From contig JAJYNW010000011.1 in assembly GCA_021786105.1 (NCBI GenBank), forward strand, positions 1 to 11,606: DNA of 11,606 nucleotides. The letters run 5' to 3'. The translations under genes were made by a program, and so were the position numbers. The DNA comes from a bacterium (lineage in GTDB: Bacteria > Patescibacteriota > Microgenomatia > Daviesbacterales > UBA10151). Below the pieces are notes generated by a model. It was not told where the DNA came from, searched no databases, and was given only the letters and a program-made list of their open reading frames with translations. Shown here in pieces: positions 140 through 11,496 of the stretch (positions are counted from its first letter, which is position 1; each line of letters begins with the position of its first letter).

Positions 140-169
140 TTGACGCCTGCATAAAATTTTCTGTACAAT
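140..169 (+). promoter_or_regulatory. Putative sigma70 promoter of the atp operon (leaderless type)
   Basis: TTGACG at 140-145, 18-nt spacer, TACAAT at 164-169. The in-frame ATG at 177 lies 7 nt downstream and has no SD. Confidence 0.6.
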
Positions 170-176
170 GAACAAA

Positions 177-899
177 ATGGAAAATACGATTGTTTTAAAG
201 CCCGAGATTTTGGGATACTTCCACAACTTCCCCATTGCCAATACTTTGCTGGTTAGCTGGATTGTCATGGTTGTTTTAATTATTGTTTCTTTTCTGGCTA
301 CCAGAAAAGTGCAAATGGTGCCCAATGGCTTACAGAATTTATTTGAAATCATCGTTGATTTTGGTTATACCACTGTGGAAGATCTGGCAGGCAGCAGCAA
401 AGCTAAAGTTTTCTTCCCAATTGTGATGACTTTTTTCCTGTTTATTTTATTTTCCAACTGGATTGGTCTTTTGCCGGGTTTTGCCACCATTAAGTTTCAT
501 GGAGAGCCGCTCCTCCGTTCCATGAATTCTGATTTAAATATGACTTTGGCCTTGGCTTTGGTTTCTGCTTTTTTGACCCACGCCTTTGCTATCCGCTATC
601 TAGGTATTGCCGATTATTTAAAAAGATGGTTTACTTTAAATCCAATATTTCTTTTTGTGGGATTGCTGGAATTGGTAGGAGAAGTGACAAAAGTGGTCTC
701 GCTATCCTTCCGGCTTTTTGGTAATATATTTGCCGGGGAAGTGGTTTTGGCAACGGTTTCAACAATCTTTGCCTTTATAGCACCACTCCCTTTTTATTTT
801 TTGGAGATTATTGTAGGATTTGTACAGGCTGCAGTTTTTATGATGTTAACGCTCGTGTTTATGACGTTATTGTCAGAAAAACATGCTGCTGAGCATTAA
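177..899 (+). CDS. atpB: F0F1 ATP synthase subunit a
   Basis: Hydrophobic protein with NWIGLLPG, SLSFRLFGNIFAGE (essential Arg) and VQAAVF motifs. The ORF track starts at 168, but that ATG overlaps the -10 box, so ATG 177 is preferred. Confidence 0.97.
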   Translation: MENTIVLKPEILGYFHNFPIANTLLVSWIVMVVLIIVSFLATRKVQMVPNGLQNLFEIIVDFGYTTVEDLAGSSKAKVFFPIVMTFFLFILFSNWIGLLPGFATIKFHGEPLLRSMNSDLNMTLALALVSAFLTHAFAIRYLGIADYLKRWFTLNPIFLFVGLLELVGEVTKVVSLSFRLFGNIFAGEVVLATVSTIFAFIAPLPFYFLEIIVGFVQAAVFMMLTLVFMTLLSEKHAAEH

Positions 900-917
900 A
901 AAAAGAAAGGAGTAAAA

Positions 918-1121
918 ATGGAAAACTTGCCATCTGCTTTAGCAATTGCAATAGGCGCAGTAGGTCCGGCTATCGGAATCGGCCTTATTGGTATGAAGGC
1001 TATGGAATCAATCGGGAGAAATCCTGATGCCCAGTCGAAGATTTTACCGGCGATGCTTTTAGGTATGGCTTTTGCTGAAGCTATTGCTATTTATGCTTTG
1101 GTGATAGCTTTCATTAAGTAA
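918..1121 (+). CDS. atpE: F0F1 ATP synthase subunit c (H+-type signature)
   Basis: 67 aa helical hairpin with a Gly-rich first helix, RNP loop and carboxylate in FAEAIAIY. Strong SD AAAGGAG at 906-912. Confidence 0.97.
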   Translation: MENLPSALAIAIGAVGPAIGIGLIGMKAMESIGRNPDAQSKILPAMLLGMAFAEAIAIYALVIAFIK

Positions 1122-1272
1122 GACGCAGCTCGTCTGGCCGCAAAGCACCGCTCGCACGTCCAAGTCGCTCGCTTAAGGTTTGTTTCGCGCCCAGTACGGA
1201 TTCGGTACACGGACAAGGTGGTGTGTTCAACTGCACCATATGCTTTGACTGGCTCAGACTTCGCTGCTTTTT
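1121..1272 (+). other. GC-rich multibranch structured intergenic element (cis-RNA or palindromic insertion, family unknown)
   Basis: Nested complementary segments GCAGC/GCTGC, GTCTG/CAGAC, GCC/GGC, CAAAGCA/TGCTTTG and GTCC/GGAC, inner hairpins, and a downstream T5 tract. Confidence 0.6.
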
Positions 1273-1284
1273 GCTGATATCAAT

Positions 1285-1779
1285 ATGGAAATTTTGAACC
1301 AATTCGGAATTAATCCATTACTTTTGGCCGCGCAAGTGGTTAATTTTGCCATTCTTCTTTTTATCTTGCGGAGGTTTTTATATAAACCGATCTTGAAAGT
1401 TTTGGAAGAAAGAAAACAAAAGATTGCAGATAGCTTAAAAAATGCGGAAGAGATTGAAAGAAGATTAAATGAACTTAGCGAGAAAGAAACGGAAGCACTT
1501 ATAAAAGCTGGAAAAGAAGGCCAAAAGATTATTCAGCAGGCCGGTGAGGAATACAAACAAACAGTAGAAGAGGCCAAAAAGGAGTATGAGAGGATTATCA
1601 ATAAGGCAGTTGAAGATGCCAAGAAATTAACAGAACTGGAGAAAGTTAGGTTGGAGCAGCATGTCAAGGAGAATTTGGGAGATATTGTGGCGATGGCGCT
1701 CGAGAAAGTGACCGGTAAAACTTTAACCGGAAAGAAAGAAAAGGAGATAATCGAGAAAGAGATTAAGAATTTATCATGA
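1285..1779 (+). CDS. atpF: F0F1 ATP synthase subunit b
   Basis: N-terminal TM segment (QVVNFAILLFILRRFLYKPILKVLEERKQKI) followed by a charged coiled coil; expected operon position. Confidence 0.95.
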   Translation: MEILNQFGINPLLLAAQVVNFAILLFILRRFLYKPILKVLEERKQKIADSLKNAEEIERRLNELSEKETEALIKAGKEGQKIIQQAGEEYKQTVEEAKKEYERIINKAVEDAKKLTELEKVRLEQHVKENLGDIVAMALEKVTGKTLTGKKEKEIIEKEIKNLS

Positions 1780-2168
1780 CAAAAAGACAATTACAAAAAA
1801 TCGTGAGAGAACTGGTAAATGTTAGTTTTAAAGATGACAGAATGGTGGAAGTTCAGGTGTTAAGATCAATTAAGACTTTAAAATCTCTCCCCAGATCAGA
1901 AGCAATCCAGGCGTTATCAGAATACCTGAAGGGATTAAAGAGAATAGAGAGAGAACATACACTTTATATTGAAGCAGTAATGCCGCTTTCCCCTATCCAA
2001 GTTAAGAAAATTAAGCAAAAAATTGAGAGAAAAGCCACCATTACTAAAGTAGTGGTAAATATCAATCCGGAAATTCTGGGTGGAATTAAACTGCGGATTG
2101 GAGATGAAATATGGGACGAATCAATTTCTGGTAAAATTAACCAGGTGAAGGAGGCAATCAGTGGCTGA
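1776..2168 (+). CDS. atpH: F0F1 ATP synthase subunit delta (shortened)
   Basis: C-terminal delta/OSCP motif [30 protein letters not shown] overlap with atpF. Only 130 aa. Confidence 0.9.
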
Positions 2169-3672
2169 TTTAATTGCGGAAATAGAAAGTCAAATTAAAG
2201 GGTTGAAACTTAAAGCCCAGAGAGAAAATGTGGGGGTTGTTACTGAAATCGGCGACGGCGTGGCCAGGATTGAAGGTCTGTCCGATGTTAAATATTCAGA
2301 GCTTTTGGATTTTGGTAAAGGTGTAACTGGTTTGGCTTTGAATTTGGAACAATACAATGTCGGAGCGGTGATTTTTGGTGATTTCACTAAGATTAAAGAA
2401 GGTGATCAAGTTAAGACTACCGGGCAGATTTTGCAAGTGCCGGCAGGAGAAGCTTTGATTGGCCGGGTAGTTGACGCTTTAGGTAACCCGATTGACGGCA
2501 AAGGCGCCATTAAGACCAAAGACCGCTATCCGGTGGAAAAAATTGCCCCCGGAGTGATTACCAGACAAAAAGTCAATACGCCTTTGCAAACTGGAATTAA
2601 GGCCATTGACAGCATGATCCCAATTGGTCGGGGCCAGCGGGAGTTAATTATTGGTGATAGGAGCACCGGTAAAACTACTATTGCTATTGATACCATTATT
2701 AACCAAAAAGACGTCATTTGTATTTATGTGGCCATTGGTCAAAAAACTTCCAAGGTAGCTCAATTAGTGGCCAAGCTGGAAGAGATCGGCGCCATGGATC
2801 ATACTATTGTGGTGTCAGCGACTGCTTCTGAGTCAGCTACTATGCAGTACATTGCTCCATACGCCGGTTGCGCCATGGGTGAATATTTCATGGATCAAGG
2901 CAAAGACGCTTTAATCATCTACGATGATTTATCAAAACATGCCCAAAGTTATAGACAGGTATCGCTTCTTTTGAGACGTCCATCCGGACGTGAAGCTTAT
3001 CCGGGAGATGTGTTTTACCTGCATTCCCGGTTGCTTGAGCGGGCTGCTAAATTAAATAAGGATTACGGTGGCGGGTCACTGACCGCTCTCCCGATTATTG
3101 AAACCCAGGCCGGTGATGTGTCTGCCTATATTCCCACTAACGTCATTTCTATCACTGATGGACAAATTTATCTGGAATCAGATTTGTTCTTTGCCGGAAT
3201 TAGACCGGCGGTTAATGTGGGTTTGTCAGTGTCCCGGGTGGGCGGTGACGCTCAGACTAAAGCCATGAAGTCGGTGGCCGGTCCGCTCCGGCTGGATCTG
3301 GCTCAATTTAGAGCTTTGCAGGCTTTTGCTCAATTCTCCTCTGACTTAGATCCAGCTACCAAGGCCCAAATCGAAAGAGGGAAAAGAGTGACGGAAATCT
3401 TAAAGCAGCCCCCCTACTCTCCGGTTTCTGTTGAAGAGCAAGTGGTAATTTTGTGGGCAGTGACCCACGGGTATTTGGATGAAATAGAAGTAGAAAGGGT
3501 GCGTGATTTTGAACAAAAATACATTGCTCACCTTAAACTGCGGGAGAAGAAACTGCTGGCTGAGATAGCAGAGAAAAAGGCGCTGGATGAAAAAATGACC
3601 AAAGATCTGGAAAAGGTGACAAAAGAGTTTGTGGGAATATTTGGAAAGTCGGTGAAAGGAGCTAAAAAATAG
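2161..3672 (+). CDS. atpA: F1 ATP synthase subunit alpha
   Basis: [17 protein letters not shown] Walker [20 protein letters not shown] and [13 protein letters not shown] motifs. GTG start with SD AAGGAGG at 2148-2154. Confidence 0.99.
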
Positions 3673-3749
3673 AGTCCAGTTGCTAGAATCTAGAGTCTAG
3701 TTCTGTATTGCAGAATTTTTAGACTCTCGACTCTTGACTCTAGTCACTA
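3670..3749. repeat. Inverted arrays of degenerate heptamer repeats around a small hairpin
   Basis: Left arm TAGAGTC CAGTTGC TAGAATC TAGAGTC TAG; centre TTCTG-TATTG-CAGAA; right arm TAGACTC TCGACTC TTGACTC TAGTCAC TA. Confidence 0.75.
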
Positions 3750-3753
3750 ACGA

Positions 3754-4635
3754 ATGGCTAATACCAGAGAATTAAGACGCAGAATAAGATCAGTTAAAAA
3801 TACCGCTCAAATCACCAAAGCTATGCAAATGGTGTCTGCCACCAAGATGAGAAGAGCGCAAAATCAGGCTTTAAACGGCCGCCCGTATAGTTTTAATTTA
3901 AGTTATGCCCTTAAAAGGCTTTTGCCTTTGGTTGATACGGAGTCTCATCCTTTGTTAACAAGACATGATTCTAAAACCCAAGGCATTATTTTGTTATCAA
4001 CCGATAAAAGTTTGTGTGGGGCTTTGAATACTAATTTATTCCGGACACTGCTGGCTTCTAACCTATCCGAGGCAGTTTTTTATACCGTGGGCAGAAAAGG
4101 CCGCGAGTTTGTGATCAGAACAGGTAATAAGCTAGTAGCTGATTTTGAAAATTCCGATACAGTGGTTTTTCGGCAAGCTGCGCAGCTTGCTAAACTGGTG
4201 ATAGAAGCTTTTTTAAGCGGAGAAATTGGCGAGGCTTATATAGCTTTCCCCCGTTTTGTGTCCACTTTGCGGCAGGAAGCGATGAAGGTTAAGCTGTTAC
4301 CGATAGAATATTCGGAATTGGAAGCATTAATTGCTGCTCAGTCTGAAGGAAAATCTAAAGAGGGTGATTTGGCAAAAAGTGAGTTTCTTTTTGAGCCGGA
4401 TCCCAAAAAACTTTTGGATTTTATCTTAAACCACTATATTGAAATTAAAATTTACCAATCCTTGTTGGAAACCAAGGCTTCGGAACATTCAGCTCGGATG
4501 ATTGCCATGCAAAATGCCACTGATAATGCTTTGGAGCTTGTAGATGATCTTAATCTTGCCTATAATAAGACCCGTCAAGATTCAATTACCAAGGAGCTTT
4601 TGGAAATAACAACAGCCTCTTTGGCAATGCAGTGA
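3754..4635 (+). CDS. atpG: F1 ATP synthase subunit gamma
   Basis: IRSVKNTAQITKAMQMVSATKM, DKSLCGALN and SEHSARMIAMQNATDNA...RQDSITKELLEI motifs. Confidence 0.99.
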   Translation: MANTRELRRRIRSVKNTAQITKAMQMVSATKMRRAQNQALNGRPYSFNLSYALKRLLPLVDTESHPLLTRHDSKTQGIILLSTDKSLCGALNTNLFRTLLASNLSEAVFYTVGRKGREFVIRTGNKLVADFENSDTVVFRQAAQLAKLVIEAFLSGEIGEAYIAFPRFVSTLRQEAMKVKLLPIEYSELEALIAAQSEGKSKEGDLAKSEFLFEPDPKKLLDFILNHYIEIKIYQSLLETKASEHSARMIAMQNATDNALELVDDLNLAYNKTRQDSITKELLEITTASLAMQ

Positions 4636-4642
4636 CGCTTAG

Positions 4643-6090
<1,448 letters not shown>

Positions 6091-6259
6091 ATATCCTCAA
6101 AATTCAAGGAGGCTTGAGAAACTATTCCGGGAGCTTCGATAACATTTTATCCAACCTTAATTAGATCGGAAAGAAAGCCAGCACTAGTAGACCATTTAAA
6201 AAGAAAGAAAATATATTGAGAATGAAACAAAGTTTCGCGTAACGAATGCAAGTATGAAT

Positions 6260-6625
6260 TTAGGAAATTGGTTCAAAAGTACCATCGAGGTGAAGATAAT
6301 AAGTTTCCACTTCTAATTCAGGATATTGAGCTTTGATTTTAGCAGCAGCGTTTTTTAAATCTTCTGCATGCTTTTCCACAGTTCCCGCTTCCCCATATGC
6401 TCCACAATCTTCGTGGTTTATTAACACGGCTTTTTTAATATGATGCAGTCTTTTTGATATCCCAACTTGTTTTAAAATATAATCCAGATCAAACACGCCT
6501 CCGGCACTAGCTACCCTATCAAAAGACCGAGGGGGAAATTTTTCCGTGATCCACTTATTGATATATTCCTGAAATCGGAAATCGATACAGGTAACAATAA
6601 CGGCTTCGCAATTATGATCGGACAT
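6260..6625 (-). CDS. Minimal beta-class carbonic anhydrase-like metalloprotein
   Basis: Zn-ligand motifs C-I-D-F-R (CxDxR) and H-E-D-C-G (HxxC) with an intervening AGG; 121 aa. Confidence 0.8.
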   Translation of the reverse strand: MSDHNCEAVIVTCIDFRFQEYINKWITEKFPPRSFDRVASAGGVFDLDYILKQVGISKRLHHIKKAVLINHEDCGAYGEAGTVEKHAEDLKNAAAKIKAQYPELEVETYYLHLDGTFEPIS

Positions 6626-6632
6626 GGAGAAA

Positions 6633-6638
6633 ATTTTA
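6633..6638 (-). promoter_or_regulatory. Putative -10 box (TAAAAT) for the leaderless beta-CA-like gene
   Basis: Minus-strand TAAAAT ends 7 nt before the ATG at 6625; no SD. Confidence 0.45.
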
Positions 6639-6645
6639 CACTATT

Positions 6646-6674
6646 TTGCTCTTCCTGAACAGATTTGTTATACT
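6646..6674 (+). promoter_or_regulatory. Putative sigma70 promoter with extended -10 for the zeta-CA-like gene
   Basis: TTGCTC at 6646-6651, 17-nt spacer, TG-n-TATACT at 6666-6674. Confidence 0.65.
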
Positions 6675-6686
6675 ATCAGATAACGG

Positions 6687-6714
6687 ATTCGACCCACTTT
6701 GGGTCGGATTTTTT
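6687..6714 (+). terminator. Terminator-like hairpin plus T-tract in the 5' leader
   Basis: CGACCCA-CTT-TGGGTCG stem (6690-6706), extendable by ATT/GAT, followed by TTTTTT at 6709-6714. Confidence 0.5.
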
Positions 6715-6720
6715 AAAGTT

Positions 6721-7365
6721 ATGGCAACAGAATTGAAGACACATCCGCAGTATAATTCTACAGAAGTAGAAAGATTTTTTGTAGGTAGAGGATGGAAAGT
6801 AGAGTTTGTTAGAGTCGGTAATGAAGATTTGGTTCCAGCAGAAGAAGGTGCCGCAGTGGAATGTATTGATGGCCGGTTTGGAAAGAGAAAAGAGATAAAA
6901 AAGCATGGCCCGAAACTTCCGGGCGCTTCTCTTGCAATAGCGGCTTCGAAAACAGGCGGTAATACAATAGGATTTAATGCAGCAGCCTCAGAAATTGCCA
7001 GACTGGGTTATCGGGCTGGTACCCACGTACATTGCGGATTTCTCCATTTATGGCAGAATGGAGAATTAGTGGCAGTAAAGCACAAACTAGAGCTGCCTAA
7101 TATACCAGATCAGGCGAATTGGATGGTTCTCAAGCAAAAACAATGGGGAGGTAAACACTTTCATATATCTGATGAACACGAAGAAGAGGCTTTAACCTTT
7201 AATCCGTTTCTTGGGTTGACAAATAAGGCAAGGAAAGATAGGTTTGGTTACGACCACTGGTTAATGCAAATTTTAGGGATCCACAGAAGAAGCGCAATGC
7301 ATTTAGTTGCAGAAACGGTTGAAAGAATATCTTCTCACAGGAAAGTTGAAATTCTGACTAAGTAG
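6721..7365 (+). CDS. Zeta-class (cadmium, CDCA1-like) carbonic anhydrase homologue, single domain
   Basis: 214 aa from ATG 6721 (the TTG at 6646 coincides with the -35 box). Motifs GRGWxxE, CIDGR, GPKLPG, H..CGFLHLWxxG, HxE, DRFxxDxW and AETVE are colinear with the diatom CDCA1 repeat as I recall it (GRGWDAE, CVDGR, GPKMPGG, CGFFKLWVTG, HTE, QRFIVDGW, AATVE). Confidence 0.82.
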   Translation: MATELKTHPQYNSTEVERFFVGRGWKVEFVRVGNEDLVPAEEGAAVECIDGRFGKRKEIKKHGPKLPGASLAIAASKTGGNTIGFNAAASEIARLGYRAGTHVHCGFLHLWQNGELVAVKHKLELPNIPDQANWMVLKQKQWGGKHFHISDEHEEEALTFNPFLGLTNKARKDRFGYDHWLMQILGIHRRSAMHLVAETVERISSHRKVEILTK

Positions 7366-7371
7366 TATAAT
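7366..7371 (+). promoter_or_regulatory. Consensus -10 box (TATAAT) directly before atpC
   Basis: Perfect TATAAT 7 nt upstream of ATG 7379. No SD and no well-spaced -35. Confidence 0.55.
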
Positions 7372-7378
7372 ATTAAAT

Positions 7379-7789
7379 ATGGCTCAGCTGCATTTAAAAA
7401 TTGTTACTCCGGAAAAACTGCTAATTGATGAGGAAGTTTCACAGGTGAATGTTTCTACCGAAGAGGGGGAAATTGGCATACTTCCCCACCATGCTAATTT
7501 AATGGCTAAACTTACCCCCGGTGAATTAATTATTAAAAAGAACGGAAAGGTTGAATCATTGGCTATCGGGGACGGGTTTTTACAGGTGGCGGATGATGTT
7601 TTGACAGTGATGACGGATTTGGCAACTTATGCGGTTGATATTGACGAAAGAGCGGTTGAGGAGGCCAAAAAACGAGCTGAGCAGGCTTTAACCCAAACTT
7701 TGTCTGACGAAGAATATGCGGATACTTTGGCCAACTTGGAGAAATCCCTGGCCCAACTTCGGGTGAAAAGACGCCATAGAGTGAGGTAG
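7379..7789 (+). CDS. atpC: F1 ATP synthase subunit epsilon
   Basis: LKIVTPE and GEIGILPHHA motifs, GFLQV beta-sandwich and C-terminal helical hairpin (EAKKRAEQAL...LAQLRV). Confidence 0.97.
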   Translation: MAQLHLKIVTPEKLLIDEEVSQVNVSTEEGEIGILPHHANLMAKLTPGELIIKKNGKVESLAIGDGFLQVADDVLTVMTDLATYAVDIDERAVEEAKKRAEQALTQTLSDEEYADTLANLEKSLAQLRVKRRHRVR

Positions 7790-7790
7790 A

Positions 7791-7819
7791 TTGGTAATTA
7801 ATCACTTCTGTTATACAAT
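7791..7819 (+). promoter_or_regulatory. Putative sigma70 promoter of the glycosyltransferase cluster
   Basis: TTGGTA at 7791-7796, 17-nt spacer, TACAAT at 7814-7819; ATG 8 nt downstream. Confidence 0.55.
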
Positions 7820-7827
7820 ATTTAGAC

Positions 7828-8751
7828 ATGGCCAGTAGCGAAAATCCCGATCTTTCAATTATTATCCTTAATTACAATGTTAAGGAGCTGTTATTAAACT
7901 GTTTAGAATCTACTTTCAAGAACAAAACCAGCTCTGACCAGTGGCAAGTGATTGTGGTGGATAACGCCTCTTCTGACGGGTCAGTTGAAGCTGTCAGGGA
8001 AAAATATCCGCAAGTTGAGCTGGTGGAAAGTAAAAAGAATTTGGGGTTCGCCGCCGGTAATAACATGGGAGTGTTATTGGCTAAGGCCCCTGTTATCCTC
8101 TTTCTAAATCCGGATACGGTGGTAGTCGGTCAAGCTATCCAAAAAACTTTGGCAGTTTTATTATCTAATCCTGATTTTGGGGTGGTTACTTGTAAGGTCG
8201 AGCTGCCGGATGGCCGGATGGATTATTCTTGTCATCGCGGCTTCCCTACTCCCTGGAATTCATTGGCCTACTTTAGCGGTTTTGCCAAAATGTTTCCCAA
8301 ATTAGCCTTGTTTTCTGGGTATACCGCCAGTTTCTTGGATATCTCAAAAGCTCACGAAGTAGATTGCATCAGCGGAACTTTTTTGATGGTTAGAAAGATT
8401 GCCGGGGAGCAAATTGGTTTTTGGGATAAGGATTATTTTTTTAACGGCGAGGATATTGAATTTTGTTATTCTTTAAAACAAAAAGGCTGGAAAATTTATT
8501 ATTATCCGGAGGAAAAGATTATTCACTACAAAGGTTCTTCTTCAGGCCTTTGGCAAACTGGTGCCGTTAAGGTGGAAAGAGGGACAAAACTGACAGCTGC
8601 CACTCATGCTGCTTCAGCTATGCGGATTTTTTATAAAAAACATTATTATAAAAACTATCCTCCTCTACTGCGGGATTTTGTCTTGGGGGGAATAAAAATG
8701 CTGGAGCATTACCGAAAATTTAAGATCATCACCGGATTGAAATATGAATAA
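7828..8751 (+). CDS. Family 2 glycosyltransferase (WbbL/rhamnosyltransferase-like)
   Basis: SIIILNYN, VVDNASSDGS, NLGFAAGNN, LNPD, EDIEFC and IIHYKG motifs. Confidence 0.93.
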   Translation: MASSENPDLSIIILNYNVKELLLNCLESTFKNKTSSDQWQVIVVDNASSDGSVEAVREKYPQVELVESKKNLGFAAGNNMGVLLAKAPVILFLNPDTVVVGQAIQKTLAVLLSNPDFGVVTCKVELPDGRMDYSCHRGFPTPWNSLAYFSGFAKMFPKLALFSGYTASFLDISKAHEVDCISGTFLMVRKIAGEQIGFWDKDYFFNGEDIEFCYSLKQKGWKIYYYPEEKIIHYKGSSSGLWQTGAVKVERGTKLTAATHAASAMRIFYKKHYYKNYPPLLRDFVLGGIKMLEHYRKFKIITGLKYE

Positions 8752-9661
8752 TTTAGATTTAACAGTAGTCATTTTAAGCTATAACACCAAAGATGTAACC
8801 GGTCGGTGTTTGGATAAGCTGAAAATTTCCAAGGAGTATTGCGAAAAAAAATTCAAAAACAAAGTGCGGGTAATTGTAGTAGACAATGGGTCGTCTGACG
8901 GATCAGTTGGCATGATTAAAACCGAACATCCTTGGGTTAAGCTGATTGCCCTGGCAAAAAATTCCGGTTTTTCCGGCGGCAATAATTTGGCAATGAAAGA
9001 AGTTAAAACCCCTTTCATACTCCTCCTTAATTCTGATGTGTATTTGGAAGAGGAAAGTTTGTATAAGGCTTTAGCCTATTTCCGGGTGAATTTAAATTGT
9101 GATGTGTTGGGAGCCAGGTTAAATTACGCCAATGGTTCTTTACAACCCAGCGCCGGCAATTTACCAAATCCTTTGAATATTATTTTTTGGATTTTAGGTT
9201 TGAGTTTGCTTCCGGGAATTAGTCAACTCGTTCCCCCATTTCACCCCAAGGATAAAAAATATTTTTCCAAGGCCCATCAAGTTGATTGGATTATGGGGGC
9301 TTTTTTTATGCTTAAAGAGGAAGTTTACAAAAGAACCGGTGGGTTTGATGAAAAACTGTTTATGCATATGGAAGAGGTGGAATGGTGCAAAAGAATCAGG
9401 CGACGTGAGTATAAAATTTGGTATGTTCCCCAAGTGGAGGTTACCCATCTGCATGGTGCTTCCACCAATTTTGATTTAAGTCTCAGTTTCCTAAATGAGC
9501 TAAAAGGTATTAAATATTATTTACAAAAACATTATCGTTTTTTCTATCCTCTGCTGAAGCTAATACTGAGCTTTGGTTTGATAATGAGAGTAATCGCTTT
9601 TTCTCTTTTAGGAAAAACTAAAAGAGCCAGGGTTTATGTAAATGGATTAAAGGTAATATAG
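8744..9661 (+). CDS. Family 2 glycosyltransferase (WbbL-like)
   Basis: VVILSYN, VVDNGSSDGS, GFSGGNN, LNSD, GFDEKLFMHMEEVEWC and HLHGAS motifs; 8-nt overlap with the upstream GT. Confidence 0.93.
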   Translation: MNNLDLTVVILSYNTKDVTGRCLDKLKISKEYCEKKFKNKVRVIVVDNGSSDGSVGMIKTEHPWVKLIALAKNSGFSGGNNLAMKEVKTPFILLLNSDVYLEEESLYKALAYFRVNLNCDVLGARLNYANGSLQPSAGNLPNPLNIIFWILGLSLLPGISQLVPPFHPKDKKYFSKAHQVDWIMGAFFMLKEEVYKRTGGFDEKLFMHMEEVEWCKRIRRREYKIWYVPQVEVTHLHGASTNFDLSLSFLNELKGIKYYLQKHYRFFYPLLKLILSFGLIMRVIAFSLLGKTKRARVYVNGLKVI

Positions 9662-9662
9662 A

Positions 9663-9702
9663 TGTCATCCTTCACCCCGATTAATCGGGGTTCAGAATGA
9701 CA
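9663..9702. repeat. GTCAT...ATGAC-bounded palindromic (REP-like) element
   Basis: TGTCAT (9663-9668) and ATGACA (9697-9702) enclose the perfect 18-bp palindrome ACCCCGATTAATCGGGGT (9674-9691). Confidence 0.7.
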
Positions 9703-9711
9703 GTAAAAAAT

Positions 9712-11496
9712 ATGGAAAAAATTGCAGTAATTACAGTTAATTACAATGGTAAAGAAGATACTTTGGAGTTTTTGGAATCTTTAAAAAAACTGGAAACTAA
9801 AAACTGTAAGGTGAGAACTATTGTCGTGGATAATGCTTCCAATGATGGCAGTGTTTCCGCTATCCATAAAGCTTTTCCTAAGGTGGATGTTTTACAAGCC
9901 GGAGCCAATTTGGGTTTTGCGGGAGGTTATAATAAAGGTTTGGAATACGCCCAAATCTGGGGAGCGGATTATTTTTTGCTGATTAATAATGATTGTTTGA
10001 TTGGTGATGCTGATTTGTTGACTGAATTAGTAAAGACTTTGAAGTCTGATCCGGAAATTGGTTTAGTTTCCCCCAAGATTTATTTTGCCAAAGGATTTGA
10101 GTTTCACAAAGACAAATATAAAGAACAAGATTTGGGTAAGGTTATTTGGTATGCCGGCGGCAAATTTGACTGGGATAATATTGGCAGTTTGCACCGCGGC
10201 ATTGATGAAGTGGACAGTGGTCAATATGACGAGGTGGAAGAAGCCGAGATTTTTTCCGGGGCGTGTGTTTTGATTAAGAAAGAGGTTTTAGAAAAAGTAG
10301 GACTTTTAGATGAAAAATACTTCCTGTATTTTGAGGACAGTGATTTGGCCAAAAGAGCCAAAATGGCCGGATTTAAGATTTACTATAATGGCAAAACCTC
10401 TGTTTATCACAAAGTTTCCCGATCCACCGGCTTAGGTTCGAAGATTACTGATTATTATCATGCCAGAAACAGGTTAATCTTTGGTCTGCAGTATGGCAGA
10501 TTCAGAACTAAGTTTGCCTTGCTCCGGGAGGCGGTAAAATTGTTTATCTTTGGTAGACCAGCTCAACGCCTGGGGGTTTTGGATTATTATTTGGGAATAA
10601 TTGGCGGCAAAACAGATTTCATGGAGCTTTCAAATAATATTGAATACCCGCTTAAATTATCAATCGGTATCGTCAACTACAATACTGCTGATTTAACCAA
10701 AAAACTTCTGCAAAGTATTTTTAAGAAAGATTCTGGTTATGACGCTGAAAAAATGGAGGTCATAGTTTTGGATAATGGTCTACTGGATTCCTGCAAGGAA
10801 GAAATTAAAGAATTTTTGCCTAAGGTTAAATATTTGCAAAATAGCGAAAATGAGGGTTTTTCCAAAGGTTATAACAAAACCATTAAATTTTCCCTTGGTG
10901 AGTATTATTTAATGCTTAATTCGGATATAGAAGTTTTGGAAAGGGCGCTTTCAGAATTAGTTAGGGTTGAGGACGAATTTAAAGGTGAGGTGGCTTTAGG
11001 CGGAAAATTAGTTTTTCCCGATCTGAGCAATCAGGATTCGGCATTTTATTTGCCGACCATCACCGGTGCTTTGAAAGAATACTTCCTGGCTCAGCCAGGG
11101 TCTTACTTTATGTATCAGCCTTCGGGTGAAAAACCGGTTAAGGTGGAAGGAGTGGCAATGGCTTGTTTGTTGATCCCGAAAAAGATTATTAAAAAAGTTG
11201 GACTTTTGGATGAAGGGACATTTATTTTCTTTGAGGATATTGAATATGCCAGAAGGCTTAAAGAGCATAGTATTCCTGCTTATTTTGTACCTAAGGCCAG
11301 GTTTATCCACTATCACGGCGGCTCCACTAAAAGAATCGGTCAGGAAAAAGCTACTGAGCATTTAGTGAAGGCTGCCAAGCATTATCATGGCATGTTTTAT
11401 TACACTTTACTGACTTTTGTATTGCGCTTAGGACAAAAATTCGGCCGGGTGGAAACTCCGGTAACTAAGTGGAAAACTACCGCAATGTCCCCGTAA
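9712..11496 (+). CDS. Tandem two-domain family 2 glycosyltransferase
   Basis: Domain 1: VITVNYN, VVDNASNDGS, INND, FLYFEDSDL. Domain 2 from ~10651: SIGIVNYN, VLDNG, LNSD, FIFFEDIEY, HYHGGS. ATG 9697 lies inside the palindrome, so 9712 is preferred. Confidence 0.92.
   Translation: MEKIAVITVNYNGKEDTLEFLESLKKLETKNCKVRTIVVDNASNDGSVSAIHKAFPKVDVLQAGANLGFAGGYNKGLEYAQIWGADYFLLINNDCLIGDADLLTELVKTLKSDPEIGLVSPKIYFAKGFEFHKDKYKEQDLGKVIWYAGGKFDWDNIGSLHRGIDEVDSGQYDEVEEAEIFSGACVLIKKEVLEKVGLLDEKYFLYFEDSDLAKRAKMAGFKIYYNGKTSVYHKVSRSTGLGSKITDYYHARNRLIFGLQYGRFRTKFALLREAVKLFIFGRPAQRLGVLDYYLGIIGGKTDFMELSNNIEYPLKLSIGIVNYNTADLTKKLLQSIFKKDSGYDAEKMEVIVLDNGLLDSCKEEIKEFLPKVKYLQNSENEGFSKGYNKTIKFSLGEYYLMLNSDIEVLERALSELVRVEDEFKGEVALGGKLVFPDLSNQDSAFYLPTITGALKEYFLAQPGSYFMYQPSGEKPVKVEGVAMACLLIPKKIIKKVGLLDEGTFIFFEDIEYARRLKEHSIPAYFVPKARFIHYHGGSTKRIGQEKATEHLVKAAKHYHGMFYYTLLTFVLRLGQKFGRVETPVTKWKTTAMSP

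What the first reader, a model, noticed from the sequence alone, without database searches (positions are those of the whole stretch)
6088..7380. Two-class carbonic anhydrase cassette (beta-like plus zeta/cadmium-like) embedded in the ATP synthase operon between atpD and atpC
Seen: the normally adjacent atpD and atpC are separated by ~1.29 kb carrying two divergent genes, each with CxDxR and HxxC metal-ligand motifs. Established: CO2 hydration releases H+ and HCO3-, and CA-like domains are coupled to membrane bioenergetics in DabAB pumps and cyanobacterial NDH-1 CUP complexes. Inference: the c subunit here is H+-type and the host is probably a CPR bacterium, a group that generally lacks respiratory chains. 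The pair could form an undescribed CO2/proton-handling module tied to F0F1 (cytoplasmic pH buffering, proton supply to an ATP-hydrolysing pump, or bicarbonate supply). Two enzyme classes might cover different metal availability (Zn vs Cd/other). The zeta-like gene is co-oriented with atpC and ends 13 nt before it, so they could be co-transcribed.
Basis: partly seen in the sequence, partly recalled or inferred. Interest (0 to 1): 0.9.

Follow-up and report, generated by a model that had tools for sequence, protein, structure and literature searches.

The report
Carbonic anhydrase genes in ATPase operon
Two genes for carbonic-anhydrase-like proteins sit inside the ATP synthase operon of a tiny, respiration-less bacterium, and the smaller one accompanies ATP synthase genes across much of that bacterial group, which hints at an undescribed link between CO2 chemistry and the cell's proton pump.

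Summary
Between atpD (ends 6090) and atpC (starts 7379) lie two real genes. One is a 121-aa minimal beta-carbonic-anhydrase-like protein (Pfam PF20393, minus strand, 6260-6625). The other is a 214-aa single-domain zeta/CDCA-like protein (PF18484, plus strand, 6721-7365, ending 13 nt before atpC). Both keep the CxDxR and H..C metal-site motifs, and both give confident models that match solved beta-CA and diatom CDCA1 structures. Contigs from other runs span both junctions. Homologue names point to Candidatus Daviesbacteria (Patescibacteria/CPR).

The main result goes beyond the window. Of 57 other phylum genomes with a PF20393 gene, 41 have it within about 1.6 kb of F-type atp genes, at several operon positions. 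Two more have it directly after A/V-type ATPase genes. Among 80 loci of the widespread subtype in other phyla, only 2 are ATPase-linked. I found no paper describing this.

The CDCA-like gene is a recent add-on, found in 5 of 18 genus genomes. The likely role, inferred only, is CO2/HCO3-/H+ interconversion serving an ATP-driven proton pump. Enzyme activity, metal preference and physical binding remain untested.

The parts
168..4635 (+). Upstream F-type ATP synthase genes: atpB 168-899, atpE 918-1121, atpF 1285-1779, atpH 1776-2168, atpA 2161-3672, atpG 3754-4635.
   Evidence: ORF list. These translations found atp genes in relatives by tblastn. The subunit names are my reading of the sequences and their order. 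Only atpD and atpC were run against Pfam.
4723..6090 (+). atpD, the F1 beta subunit.
   Evidence: Pfam PF00006 at E 2.5e-75, plus PF02874 and PF22919.
6091..6259 (.). 169-nt spacer between the convergent atpD and Pro_CA_2 genes, with no terminator-like site.
   Evidence: The terminator scan lists nothing here. The RNA fold is no better than shuffles, z +0.45. In sister species this spacer holds other genes: glyoxalase-like and CrtO-like ORFs.
6260..6625 (-). Gene for a 121-aa minimal beta-carbonic-anhydrase-like protein (Pfam PF20393 Pro_CA_2), antisense to the atp genes.
   Evidence: Pfam E 1.2e-16. C13, D15, R17, G42, H61, H71 and C74 are invariant in 45 sequences. The AF2 model has pLDDT 96.4. 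Foldseek matches beta-CAs 5ztp, 1g5c and 1ylk at E about 1e-6, TMq 0.69-0.76. A profile search against PDB hits beta-CAs at E 2.9e-5.
6626..6720 (.). Divergent intergenic region, conserved across species, with a promoter-like TTG-17-TGtTATACT on the plus strand (about 6646-6674).
   Evidence: The alignment with two species has 84% mean column identity and these blocks are invariant. The promoter reading is mine. The consensus scanner did not list it.
6685..6714 (+). Conserved stem-loop followed by a U run, 7 nt before the CDCA-like start codon. It could be a 5'-UTR element or an attenuator/terminator.
   Evidence: The fold of 6626-6725 has z -2.93, and 2 of 200 shuffles fold as well. The stem and T run are conserved in G015 and G001. 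Its function is not known.
6721..7365 (+). Gene for a 214-aa single-domain zeta-class (CDCA-like) carbonic-anhydrase-fold protein.
   Evidence: Pfam PF18484 at E 6.3e-10. phmmer against PDB finds CDCA1 repeats at E 8.4e-11 to 5.7e-7. The AF2 model has pLDDT 97.5. Foldseek matches 3bob and 3uk8 at TM 0.84, rmsd 2.4-2.9 Å. C48, D50, H102, C105 and H153 are invariant in 66 sequences.
7379..7789 (+). atpC, the F1 epsilon subunit with both domains.
   Evidence: Pfam PF02823 at E 5.9e-26 and PF00401 at E 3.3e-8.

Best explanation
The atpD-atpC gap of this Candidatus Daviesbacteria genome holds two genes for cytoplasmic, metal-dependent proteins of the carbonic-anhydrase fold.

The small one (PF20393, a stripped-down beta-CA fold with the Cys/His/Cys ligands and the Asp-Arg dyad) is an old accessory gene of rotary-ATPase operons in Patescibacteria. 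In different lineages it sits after atpC, before atpB, between atpA and atpG, after the A/V-type D subunit, or, as in this family, antisense between atpD and atpC.

The larger one (a single CDCA/zeta-CA domain) is a recent insertion, within this genus, into the slot between the small gene and atpC. It is probably transcribed with atpC.

Inferred mechanism: these cells show no respiratory chain, so the F1Fo complex probably runs as an ATP-driven proton pump. The CA-like enzymes would speed CO2 + H2O <-> HCO3- + H+ at the cytoplasmic face. That would supply and buffer the protons being pumped and produce bicarbonate, an anion known to activate ATP hydrolysis by F-ATPases. The opposite direction is not excluded: CA acting as a proton sink for an ATP synthase driven by an outside-acid gradient.

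Shown: gene identity, fold, conserved metal-site residues and the gene linkage. Inferred: CO2 hydratase activity, cytoplasmic location, direction of the ATPase and the coupling itself.
For: Identity and fold.

Conserved catalytic motifs:
- CxDxR plus HxxC occur in 57 of 58 Patescibacteria PF20393 ORFs and in 79 of 80 ORFs from other phyla.
- The invariant columns are listed.

Linkage within the family:
- All 18 same-family loci have the gene between or beside atpD and atpC, always on the opposite strand.

Linkage across the phylum:
- Of 400 other genomes, 57 hold a PF20393 gene over the cut-off, at 58 places.
- 41 of the 58 places lie within about 1.6 kb of F-type atp genes (22 of 29, 19 of 29).
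- 2 of the 58 lie directly after A/V-type B and D subunit genes.
- These cover about 25 GTDB families. Chance expectation for a roughly 10-15 kb target in a roughly 1 Mb genome is 1-1.5% (my arithmetic).

Control in other phyla:
- 2 of 80 loci of the widespread subtype have ATPase genes within up to 6 kb. These are a Saccharibacteria genome and an Aenigmatarchaeota genome, where the gene follows A-type A, B and D by 18 nt.

Independent origins:
- The tree splits into two deep clades (SH-aLRT 97). ATPase-linked CPR genes occur in both, and well-supported branches force at least 4 changes of the linked state.

Co-occurrence:
- The epsilon subunit was found in 229 of 400 other phylum genomes. By my reading, it is in 53 of the 61 genomes with a PF20393 match at E <= 0.001.

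Repeated pairing:
- Second, tandem PF20393 paralogues that keep both motifs follow atpC in 4 genomes.
- CDCA-like genes follow atpC in 2 other families.

Physiology:
- The own genome shows no PF00484 or PF00194 carbonic anhydrase.
- It shows no COX1, cytochrome bd or NuoLMN/Mrp family.
Against: - No member of PF20393 has a measured activity that I know of. The classical beta-CA model PF00484 scores below its cut-off (14.3 against 25.7 bits).
- 15 of 58 places are not ATPase-linked. By my reading, about 176 phylum genomes have an epsilon subunit but no PF20393 match, so the gene is not a general requirement of the enzyme.
- In this family the gene is antisense to the operon, so it cannot be on the same mRNA. 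This argues against strict co-expression.
- The CDCA-like gene is absent from 13 of 18 genus genomes searched.
- The genome encodes a carbamoyl-phosphate-synthase-like protein, which uses bicarbonate. The ordinary housekeeping role of a CA is therefore available.
- Related genomes are not independent samples.
- No expression data could be obtained.
Confidence: 0.55

Rival explanations
1. Ordinary housekeeping carbonic anhydrases. They would supply bicarbonate to the few carboxylating enzymes left in a reduced genome, such as carbamoyl-phosphate synthase. On this view they sit at atp operons only because a strongly and constitutively expressed operon is a convenient place for a small gene.
For: A CarB-like ORF of 1132 aa with two CPSase_L_D2 domains is present. 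No other CA family was found in the genome, so these would be its only CAs. The gene sits mostly at operon ends: after atpC or before atpB.
Against: In other phyla, homologues of the same family are not at ATPase operons (2 of 80), although those organisms also need bicarbonate. Linkage arose in two deep clades and with both F-type and A/V-type operons. In this family the gene is antisense, so it gains no expression from the operon.
Confidence: 0.22
2. The proteins have the CA fold but are not CO2 hydratases. They could be hydrolases of another small molecule (COS or CS2, as in CS2 hydrolase). They could also be metal-binding regulators, assembly factors or inhibitors of the rotary ATPase, analogous in role to AtpI, the zeta subunit or IF1.
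For: CS2 hydrolase (3ten) is among the fold and profile matches. The family carries extra invariant residues (H61, G42, D36) that are not part of the classical motif as I recall it. The protein is much shorter than solved beta-CAs: 121 aa against 155-222 aa for the targets. The window's CDCA-like subgroup has lost the loop between the His and Cys ligands. The source habitat labels are metal-rich: mine tailings and mine drainage metagenomes.
Against: The complete catalytic set of beta-CAs (Cys, Asp, Arg, His, Cys) is kept almost without exception. This is what purifying selection on catalysis would give. The CDCA-like model superposes on active CDCA1 repeats at 2.4 Å.
Confidence: 0.18
3. Assembly artefact or recent mobile/foreign insertion with no relation to the ATPase.
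For: The atpD-atpC interval is variable in this genus and has accepted unrelated genes: glyoxalase-like and CrtO-like ORFs, a 458-aa ORF and others.
Against: Contigs of other runs bridge both junctions with no differences. GC content is like that of the flanks. The small gene is at this place in all 18 family loci. I noticed no transposase or integrase among the ORFs listed in the loci I read, but I ran no search for them.
Confidence: 0.03

Closest known systems
Beta-class carbonic anhydrases of the small 'Cab' type (Methanobacterium Cab 1g5c, M. tuberculosis Rv1284 1ylk, S. mutans 3las)
   Same: Same fold: Foldseek E about 1e-6, TMq 0.69-0.76. The profile match is at E 2.9e-5. The CxDxR and HxxC zinc-site and dyad motifs are the same.
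   Different: It is about 40-50 residues shorter and falls below Pfam's PF00484 threshold. It is filed in a separate, uncharacterised Pfam family, PF20393. It has extra invariant residues H61 and G42. In Patescibacteria it is embedded in ATPase operons, which I did not find described for beta-CAs.
Zeta-class cadmium carbonic anhydrase CDCA1 of the diatom Thalassiosira weissflogii (3bob, 3boh, 3uk8)
   Same: Fold match at TM 0.84, rmsd 2.4-2.9 Å, 24-25% identity. It shares the CxDGR motif, the GPK.PG stretch and the His and Cys ligands.
   Different: It has a single domain rather than three tandem repeats, and it is bacterial and cytoplasmic rather than from a diatom (the repeat count and the diatom location are recalled). 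The window's subgroup has a 7-residue gap in the alignment to 3uk8 that brings His and Cys to beta-CA-like H-x-x-C spacing. The family is rare: 80 clusters at E <= 0.001 among 1.84 billion representatives.
Energy-coupled CA-like modules: DabAB CO2 pumps and cyanobacterial NDH-1 CupA/CupB (recalled, not tested here)
   Same: The idea is shared: a CA-fold protein works beside an ion-translocating membrane complex, and its gene lies next to that complex's genes.
   Different: Those partners are Mrp/complex-I-type antiporter subunits serving carbon concentration for autotrophy. Here the partner is a rotary ATPase in a non-autotrophic genome with no RuBisCO and no PF00361 subunit.
Carbonic anhydrase II working with V-ATPase or other acid-base transporters in animal epithelia and osteoclasts ('transport metabolon'; recalled)
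   Same: The proposed physiology is shared: the CA supplies protons and removes bicarbonate for an ATP-driven proton pump.
   Different: That system uses an alpha-class enzyme in eukaryotic cells with no operon link. It is analogous, not homologous.
Known accessory genes of atp operons (atpI, and regulators such as the alphaproteobacterial zeta subunit; recalled)
   Same: A small non-subunit gene kept at the edge of the operon.
   Different: Those proteins are membrane chaperones or helical inhibitors and have no metal-enzyme fold.

Membership tests
Pfam PF20393 Pro_CA_2 (putative carbonic anhydrase) | Score over the family's curated cut-off along the whole model | tested here: met
   61.4 bits against a cut-off of 30; residues 6-120 match model positions 4-124 of 125. 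The search on the genome gives the same result.
Beta-class carbonic anhydrase | Match to the classical family model PF00484 over its cut-off | tested here: not met
   14.3 bits against a cut-off of 25.7, E 0.052. Homology shows only at profile level: E 2.9e-5 to solved beta-CAs.
Beta-class carbonic anhydrase | Beta-CA fold | tested here: met
   The AF2 model has pLDDT 96.4. All matches listed (56 at E <= 0.001) are beta-CAs or CS2 hydrolase, with TMq up to 0.76.
Beta-class carbonic anhydrase | Zinc ligands Cys, His, Cys and the Asp-Arg dyad (CxDxR ... HxxC) | tested here: met
   C13, D15, R17, H71 and C74 are invariant in 45 sequences. The motifs are present in 57 of 58 and 79 of 80 ORFs. That these are the defining residues is recalled knowledge.
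Beta-class carbonic anhydrase | Dimeric assembly with the active site at the interface | not tested
Beta-class carbonic anhydrase | CO2 hydration activity | not testable with these tools
   Needs the purified protein or a complementation test.
Zeta-class (CDCA) carbonic anhydrase, Pfam PF18484 | Score over the curated cut-off | tested here: met
   39.4 bits against a cut-off of 29.2; model positions 2-183 of 184 are matched.
Zeta-class (CDCA) carbonic anhydrase, Pfam PF18484 | CDCA fold | tested here: met
   Foldseek finds 3bob, 3uk8, 7bez, 3boh and 3boj at E 3.5e-14 to 1.4e-12, TM 0.83-0.86. No other fold scores below E = 1.
Zeta-class (CDCA) carbonic anhydrase, Pfam PF18484 | Metal ligands Cys, His, Cys with the CDCA spacing (His ... 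about 9 residues ... Cys) | tested here: inconclusive
   The residues are present and invariant (C48, H102, C105). In the window's subgroup the His-Cys loop is shortened to H-x-x-C, whereas most relatives keep HGD...GCGF. Which CDCA residues bind the metal is recalled knowledge.
Zeta-class (CDCA) carbonic anhydrase, Pfam PF18484 | Use of Cd or Zn and CO2 hydration activity | not testable with these tools
   Needs metal analysis and enzyme kinetics.
Subunit or accessory factor of the F1Fo ATP synthase | Conserved gene linkage with atp genes | tested here: met
   18 of 18 family loci; 41 of 58 phylum places with F-type genes and 2 of 58 with A/V-type genes; 2 of 80 in the control set.
Subunit or accessory factor of the F1Fo ATP synthase | Physical association with the complex | tested here: inconclusive
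   The only attempt, with the epsilon subunit, gave no verdict. See Tried and rejected.

The most novel reading that the evidence does not exclude
Carbonic-anhydrase-fold proteins are working partners of rotary ATPases in ultra-small, respiration-less bacteria, and in at least one DPANN archaeon. They would bind or act right beside the enzyme, often as pairs (beta+beta or beta+zeta). Together they would form a CO2/bicarbonate-coupled proton-handling module that sets the direction and rate of the ATPase and stands in for a respiratory chain in pH and membrane-potential homeostasis.
Probability: 0.15. Interest if true: 0.85.

Novelty: new variant of a known kind. Interest (0 to 1): 0.7.

Why it matters
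How Patescibacteria energise their membrane without a respiratory chain is an open question. So is whether their F-type ATPase makes ATP or burns it. A conserved carbonic-anhydrase-like gene in their ATPase operons gives a concrete, testable handle on that question. It points to CO2/bicarbonate chemistry as part of their bioenergetics or pH control.

The finding also gives a first functional context to an uncharacterised Pfam family of very small beta-CA-like proteins. In addition, it documents a rare bacterial single-domain relative of the diatom cadmium carbonic anhydrase, here in a genome recovered from runs labelled mine tailings and mine drainage.

If the proteins are active, they would be among the smallest carbonic anhydrases known. 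This size comparison rests on my recall.

Tried and rejected
Complex prediction of the epsilon subunit (alignment A4) with the small CA-like protein (alignment A2) scored 0.00 in both runs. The verdict was 'no answer', so this says nothing for or against binding. No other subunit and no homodimer could be tried, because the cap is 1 job.

Expression: no listed holder of the stretch is an RNA run. The one metatranscriptome contig set from the same study laid nothing on the stretch. This is no evidence either way, so co-transcription and antisense transcription remain open.

Terminator between atpD and the small gene: none found by the scan or the fold.

I tested whether the other genes that fill the same slot in sister species are CA-like:
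- The 358-aa ORF of G006 has CSDAR and HFDC motifs. It gives only a sub-threshold PF00484 hit (E 0.025) and a 32-column profile match (probability 61%).
- The 508-aa ORF of G005 shares only a 15-column CxDGR stretch with the CDCA-like profile (probability 9%) and has no Pfam family.
- I do not count either as CA-like.

A profile-profile comparison of the two window families was weak (probability 39%).

DPANN generality: in 150 further genomes of the Aenigmatarchaeota genome's phylum, 2 had a PF20393 gene and neither was ATPase-linked within 1.5 kb. The archaeal case is therefore a single instance.

Literature: six searches found no paper that describes carbonic anhydrase genes in atp operons of Patescibacteria or DPANN, and none that mentions PF20393 or PF18484. 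I saw only the listings and abstract starts.

The Atlas look-up returned only PF20393 clusters, with Chloroflexota as the commonest known taxon. The apparent restriction of tree clade I to Patescibacteria may therefore reflect how I sampled: the other-phyla loci were found with a pattern of the other subtype.

Four PF20393 matches under Pfam's cut-off (G245, G255, G383, G115) were not fetched or counted. By coordinates, the G255 match lies about 200 nt from its epsilon gene.

Rows dropped from the tree: L104, and about half of the other 79 loci (every second one was kept, plus L176 and L164). L164 was labelled 'other phyla' although its title says Patescibacteria group.
Full report
WHAT IS IN THE WINDOW

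The window carries an F-type ATP synthase operon in the usual order: atpB, E, F, H, A, G, D (168-6090), then atpC (7379-7789), followed by three glycosyltransferase-like ORFs. The 1288 nt between atpD and atpC hold two ORFs.

The first ORF is on the minus strand at 6260-6625 and encodes 121 aa. Pfam places it in PF20393 'Pro_CA_2, putative carbonic anhydrase' (E 1.2e-16, 61.4 bits, cut-off 30). The classical beta-CA model PF00484 stays below its cut-off.

The second ORF is on the plus strand. The ORF finder starts it at a TTG at 6646. Its homologues are 212-233 aa long, which fits the ATG at 6721 and gives 214 aa. It ends at 7365, 13 nt before atpC. It matches PF18484 'cadmium carbonic anhydrase repeat' along the whole model (E 6.3e-10). 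It also matches the three solved repeats of the diatom enzyme CDCA1 (E 8.4e-11 to 5.7e-7). NCBIfam has no model for either protein.

IS IT REAL DNA OF ONE GENOME?

Five DNA runs from two studies hold half or more of the stretch's sampled words. Their records are labelled mine tailings and mine drainage metagenomes. Contigs of one run cover 5935-8100 and contigs of another cover 5400-7553, both without a difference. A third run bridges each junction in separate pieces. GC content does not change across the insert.

WHAT THE TWO PROTEINS ARE

AlphaFold2 models built on alignments of relatives are very confident: pLDDT 96.4 for the small protein and 97.5 for the larger one.

The small protein's best fold matches are all beta-class carbonic anhydrases of the short 'Cab' type, plus the related CS2 hydrolase (E about 1e-6, TMq up to 0.76). 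A profile of 45 family members finds solved beta-CAs at E 2.9e-5. In that alignment C13, D15, R17, H71 and C74 are invariant. As I recall, these are the zinc ligands and the Asp-Arg dyad of beta-CAs. G42 and H61 are invariant too.

The larger protein superposes on CDCA1 repeats at TM 0.84 and 2.4-2.9 Å, and no other fold comes close. A full HMMER pass over 1.84 billion representative proteins found only 80 related clusters at E <= 0.001, so the family is rare. In 66 of them C48, D50, H102, C105 and H153 are invariant.

The window's closest subgroup has a shorter loop between the His and the second Cys. This gives H-x-x-C, as in beta-CAs, where most relatives keep the CDCA-like HGD...GCGF.

Neither window protein has an N-terminal hydrophobic segment by eye, so I take both to be cytoplasmic. 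This is an inference.

THE ORGANISM

Sources name close homologues of the small protein 'Candidatus Daviesbacteria' or 'Microgenomates group'. They name one homologue of the larger protein 'cadmium-containing carbonic anhydrase [Patescibacteria group bacterium]'. The genome is 1.04 Mb and 92% complete.

Searches of the genome found:
- no PF00484 or alpha-CA;
- no haem-copper oxidase, no cytochrome bd and no NuoL/M/N-Mrp type subunit;
- no RuBisCO;
- one carbamoyl-phosphate-synthase-like ORF.

LINKAGE TO THE ATP OPERON IN THE FAMILY

With the small protein as query, 18 of 24 other genomes of the same GTDB family had a match (15 of 18 in the same genus). Only 1 of 16 genomes from other families of the class did.

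In all 18 family loci the gene lies between atpD and atpC, on the strand opposite to them. This comes, and for the two loci that needed longer flanks.

In about ten of these loci, plus the further family genome G236, the start of the small gene and the start of atpC are only about 16-73 nt apart. The ancestral state of the family is thus atpD, then the small gene antisense, then atpC.

The CDCA-like gene was found in 5 of 18 genus genomes. Two are at 64% identity, two at 34-36%, and one is a 110-aa remnant. It always lies in the slot between the small gene and atpC. In two other species the same slot holds unrelated ORFs of 358 and 508 aa. The space between atpD and the small gene has also taken up other genes. 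The CDCA-like gene is therefore a recent, dispensable addition to a variable spot.

LINKAGE ACROSS THE PHYLUM

This is the main result. In 400 other Patescibacteria genomes, PF20393 was found in 61, and in 57 of them over the cut-off, at 58 places.

I compared the window's atp proteins with DNA around all 58 places. The flanks were 1.5 kb for the 29 best places, extended to about 4 kb for the five negatives among them, and 4 kb for the other 29.
- F-type atp genes lie within about 1.6 kb at 41 of the 58 places (22 of 29, 19 of 29).
- Two more places, both in one family, follow the B and D subunit genes of an A/V-type ATPase by 38 nt.
- The remaining 15 places have no ATPase gene in the flank. 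For several of them the epsilon gene is on another contig.

The position differs between lineages:
- after atpC on the same strand, which is the commonest;
- before atpB on the same strand;
- divergent from atpB;
- convergent with atpC;
- between atpA and atpG;
- antisense between atpD and atpC.

About 25 GTDB families are involved. A random gene would fall this close to a roughly 7-kb operon in a 1-Mb genome about 1-1.5% of the time (my arithmetic).

The CxDxR and HxxC motifs are present in 57 of the 58 ORFs.

The epsilon subunit family was found in 229 of the 400 genomes. By my comparison of the two tables, it is in 53 of the 61 genomes with a PF20393 match.

CONTROL OUTSIDE THE PHYLUM

A scan of one genome per species of bacteria and archaea, using a pattern from the widespread 'CxDGR' subtype, gave 568 confirmed relatives. 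The best 80 loci came from many phyla, among them Zixibacteria, Thermoplasmatota, Chloroflexota, Bacillota and Bathyarchaeia, each with up to 6 kb of flank.

Only 2 of the 80 have ATPase genes in the flank. One is the Saccharibacteria genome from which the query came. The other is a Candidatus Aenigmatarchaeota (DPANN) genome, where the gene follows the A-type A, B and D subunit genes by 18 nt. In 150 further genomes of that archaeal phylum, 2 had the gene and neither was linked. The archaeal case therefore stands alone.

TREE

A maximum-likelihood tree was built from 101 sequences: the window, the 58 phylum ORFs and 42 from the other-phyla set. It uses 144 columns, a quick search and SH-aLRT support only. 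It splits into two clades, each with support 97.
- Clade I has 46 rows, all Patescibacteria and including the window. 34 are F-linked, 2 are A/V-linked and 10 are unlinked.
- Clade II has 55 rows. It holds the 41 unlinked sequences labelled as other phyla (one of them, L164, titled Patescibacteria group), with F-linked Patescibacteria genes at several places and the DPANN gene among them.

Well-supported branches force at least 4 changes of the F-linked state. Linkage therefore arose or was kept more than once. The alignment is short and many forks are unresolved. The other-phyla sample was drawn with a clade-II pattern, so the restriction of clade I to Patescibacteria is not established.

PAIRS RECUR

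In four genomes of two families a second PF20393 paralogue with both motifs lies in tandem after atpC. In two further families a longer CDCA-like ORF (346 and 314 aa) lies after atpC. One is 113 nt away. The other is 524 nt away, behind a minus-strand ORF. Two CA-fold genes beside atp genes, as in this window, is thus a repeated theme, although the second member differs.

LOCAL REGULATION

I found no terminator-like structure between atpD and the small gene.

The 95-nt region between the two divergent CA-like genes is more conserved across three species (84% column identity) than the adjacent protein (62-64% identity). It contains an invariant TGTTATACT preceded by TTG at the right distance. 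It also contains an invariant stem-loop with a T run at 6685-6714, 7 nt before the start codon. I read this as a promoter and a leader element for a CDCA-like/atpC transcript.

Where the small gene and atpC are 16-73 nt apart, atpC must be transcribed from within or through the small gene. atp transcription and expression of the small gene may therefore interfere with each other. This is an inference.

HOW IT MOST LIKELY WORKS

The following are shown: two CA-fold proteins with intact metal-site residues, and a strong, repeated, lineage-specific linkage of the small one to rotary-ATPase genes.

The following is inferred. The genome shows no respiratory chain, so the ATPase probably hydrolyses ATP to pump protons, as is commonly assumed for this phylum (recalled). 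A cytoplasmic carbonic anhydrase would keep CO2, bicarbonate and protons in fast equilibrium. This would supply and buffer the protons taken up by the pump. It would also make bicarbonate. [quoted passage not shown]

The reverse direction is equally compatible with the sequence data: bicarbonate dehydration as a sink for protons entering through an ATP synthase in an acid habitat.

The housekeeping role, bicarbonate for carbamoyl-phosphate synthase, remains possible. So does a non-CA role, as a regulator or an enzyme with another substrate.

COMPARISON WITH WHAT IS KNOWN

The proteins are members of known fold families: beta-CA-like PF20393 and zeta-CA PF18484. Energy-coupled CA-like modules (DabAB, NDH-1 Cup proteins) and CA-assisted proton pumping in animal cells are known (recalled).

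A CA-fold gene as a conserved companion of rotary-ATPase operons in Patescibacteria did not turn up in six full-text searches. I saw only listings, and supplements are closed.

I therefore rate it a new variant of a known kind: known enzymes in a new and conserved genomic and probably functional context.

LIMITS

- There are no activity, metal, binding or expression data.
- The one complex prediction gave no verdict.
- Relatives are not independent.
- Flank sizes differed between the two halves of the survey.
- Subunit names other than atpD and atpC are my reading.

Noticed in passing
window 6626-6720 (stem-loop 6685-6714): The intergenic region between the two CA-like genes is more conserved across three species than the neighbouring coding sequence. 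It holds an invariant TTG-17-TGtTATACT and a stem-loop with a T run 7 nt before the start codon. It could be a promoter plus a leader/attenuator for the CDCA-like/atpC transcript.
   Followed up: partly
window 6454-6483 (+): There is a near-consensus sigma-70-like site (TTGATA-18-TATAAT, 11 of 12 matches) inside the small gene, on the strand of the atp genes. It is a possible internal promoter for the downstream genes. The number of such sites in the region is not above that of shuffles.
   Followed up: no
L007 1952-3028 (+) and L184 5198-6724 (+): In two sister species the slot between the small CA-like gene and atpC holds other ORFs of 358 and 508 aa. They carry a CxDxR motif (CSDAR with HFDC; CVDGR) but have no significant family match.
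   Followed up: partly
L185 (G020) 3257-9550; L007 607-1473; L184 4179-4703: The atpD-atpC interval is an insertion hot spot in this family. It has grown to about 4.4 kb with several unrelated ORFs in one genus. Elsewhere it holds glyoxalase-like and CrtO-like genes.
   Followed up: partly
L066 3947-4893; L044 908-1896; L041 870-1902; L042 816-1902: Two tandem PF20393 paralogues, both with CxDxR and HxxC motifs, lie after atpC in four genomes of two families.
   Followed up: partly
L176 237-6384 (+): A Candidatus Aenigmatarchaeota (DPANN) genome has a PF20393 gene 18 nt after the A-type ATPase A, B and D subunit genes. This mirrors the arrangement after A/V-type genes in one Patescibacteria family (L047, L050). 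Two other genomes of that phylum have the gene unlinked.
   Followed up: yes
L032/L103 (G354): 575-1081 (-), 1099-2043 (+), 2119-2856 (+) in L032: In this locus the CDCA-like ORF after atpC is flanked by ORFs that I read as an MscL-like channel and an aquaporin-like protein. I did not run them against Pfam.
   Followed up: no
L072 3521-4003 (-), L079 3857-4393 (+): Two PF20393 ORFs that are not ATPase-linked (family f127) have hydrophobic N-terminal extensions that look like signal peptides or membrane anchors. They may be exported forms.
   Followed up: no
window 4700-7800: All runs that hold most of the stretch are labelled mine tailings or mine drainage metagenomes. These are metal-rich habitats, which is worth noting next to a cadmium-CA-like gene, but it is no evidence of metal use.
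   Followed up: no
window 7828-11496: Three consecutive glycosyltransferase-like ORFs follow atpC. The first also follows atpC in most genus relatives.
   Followed up: no
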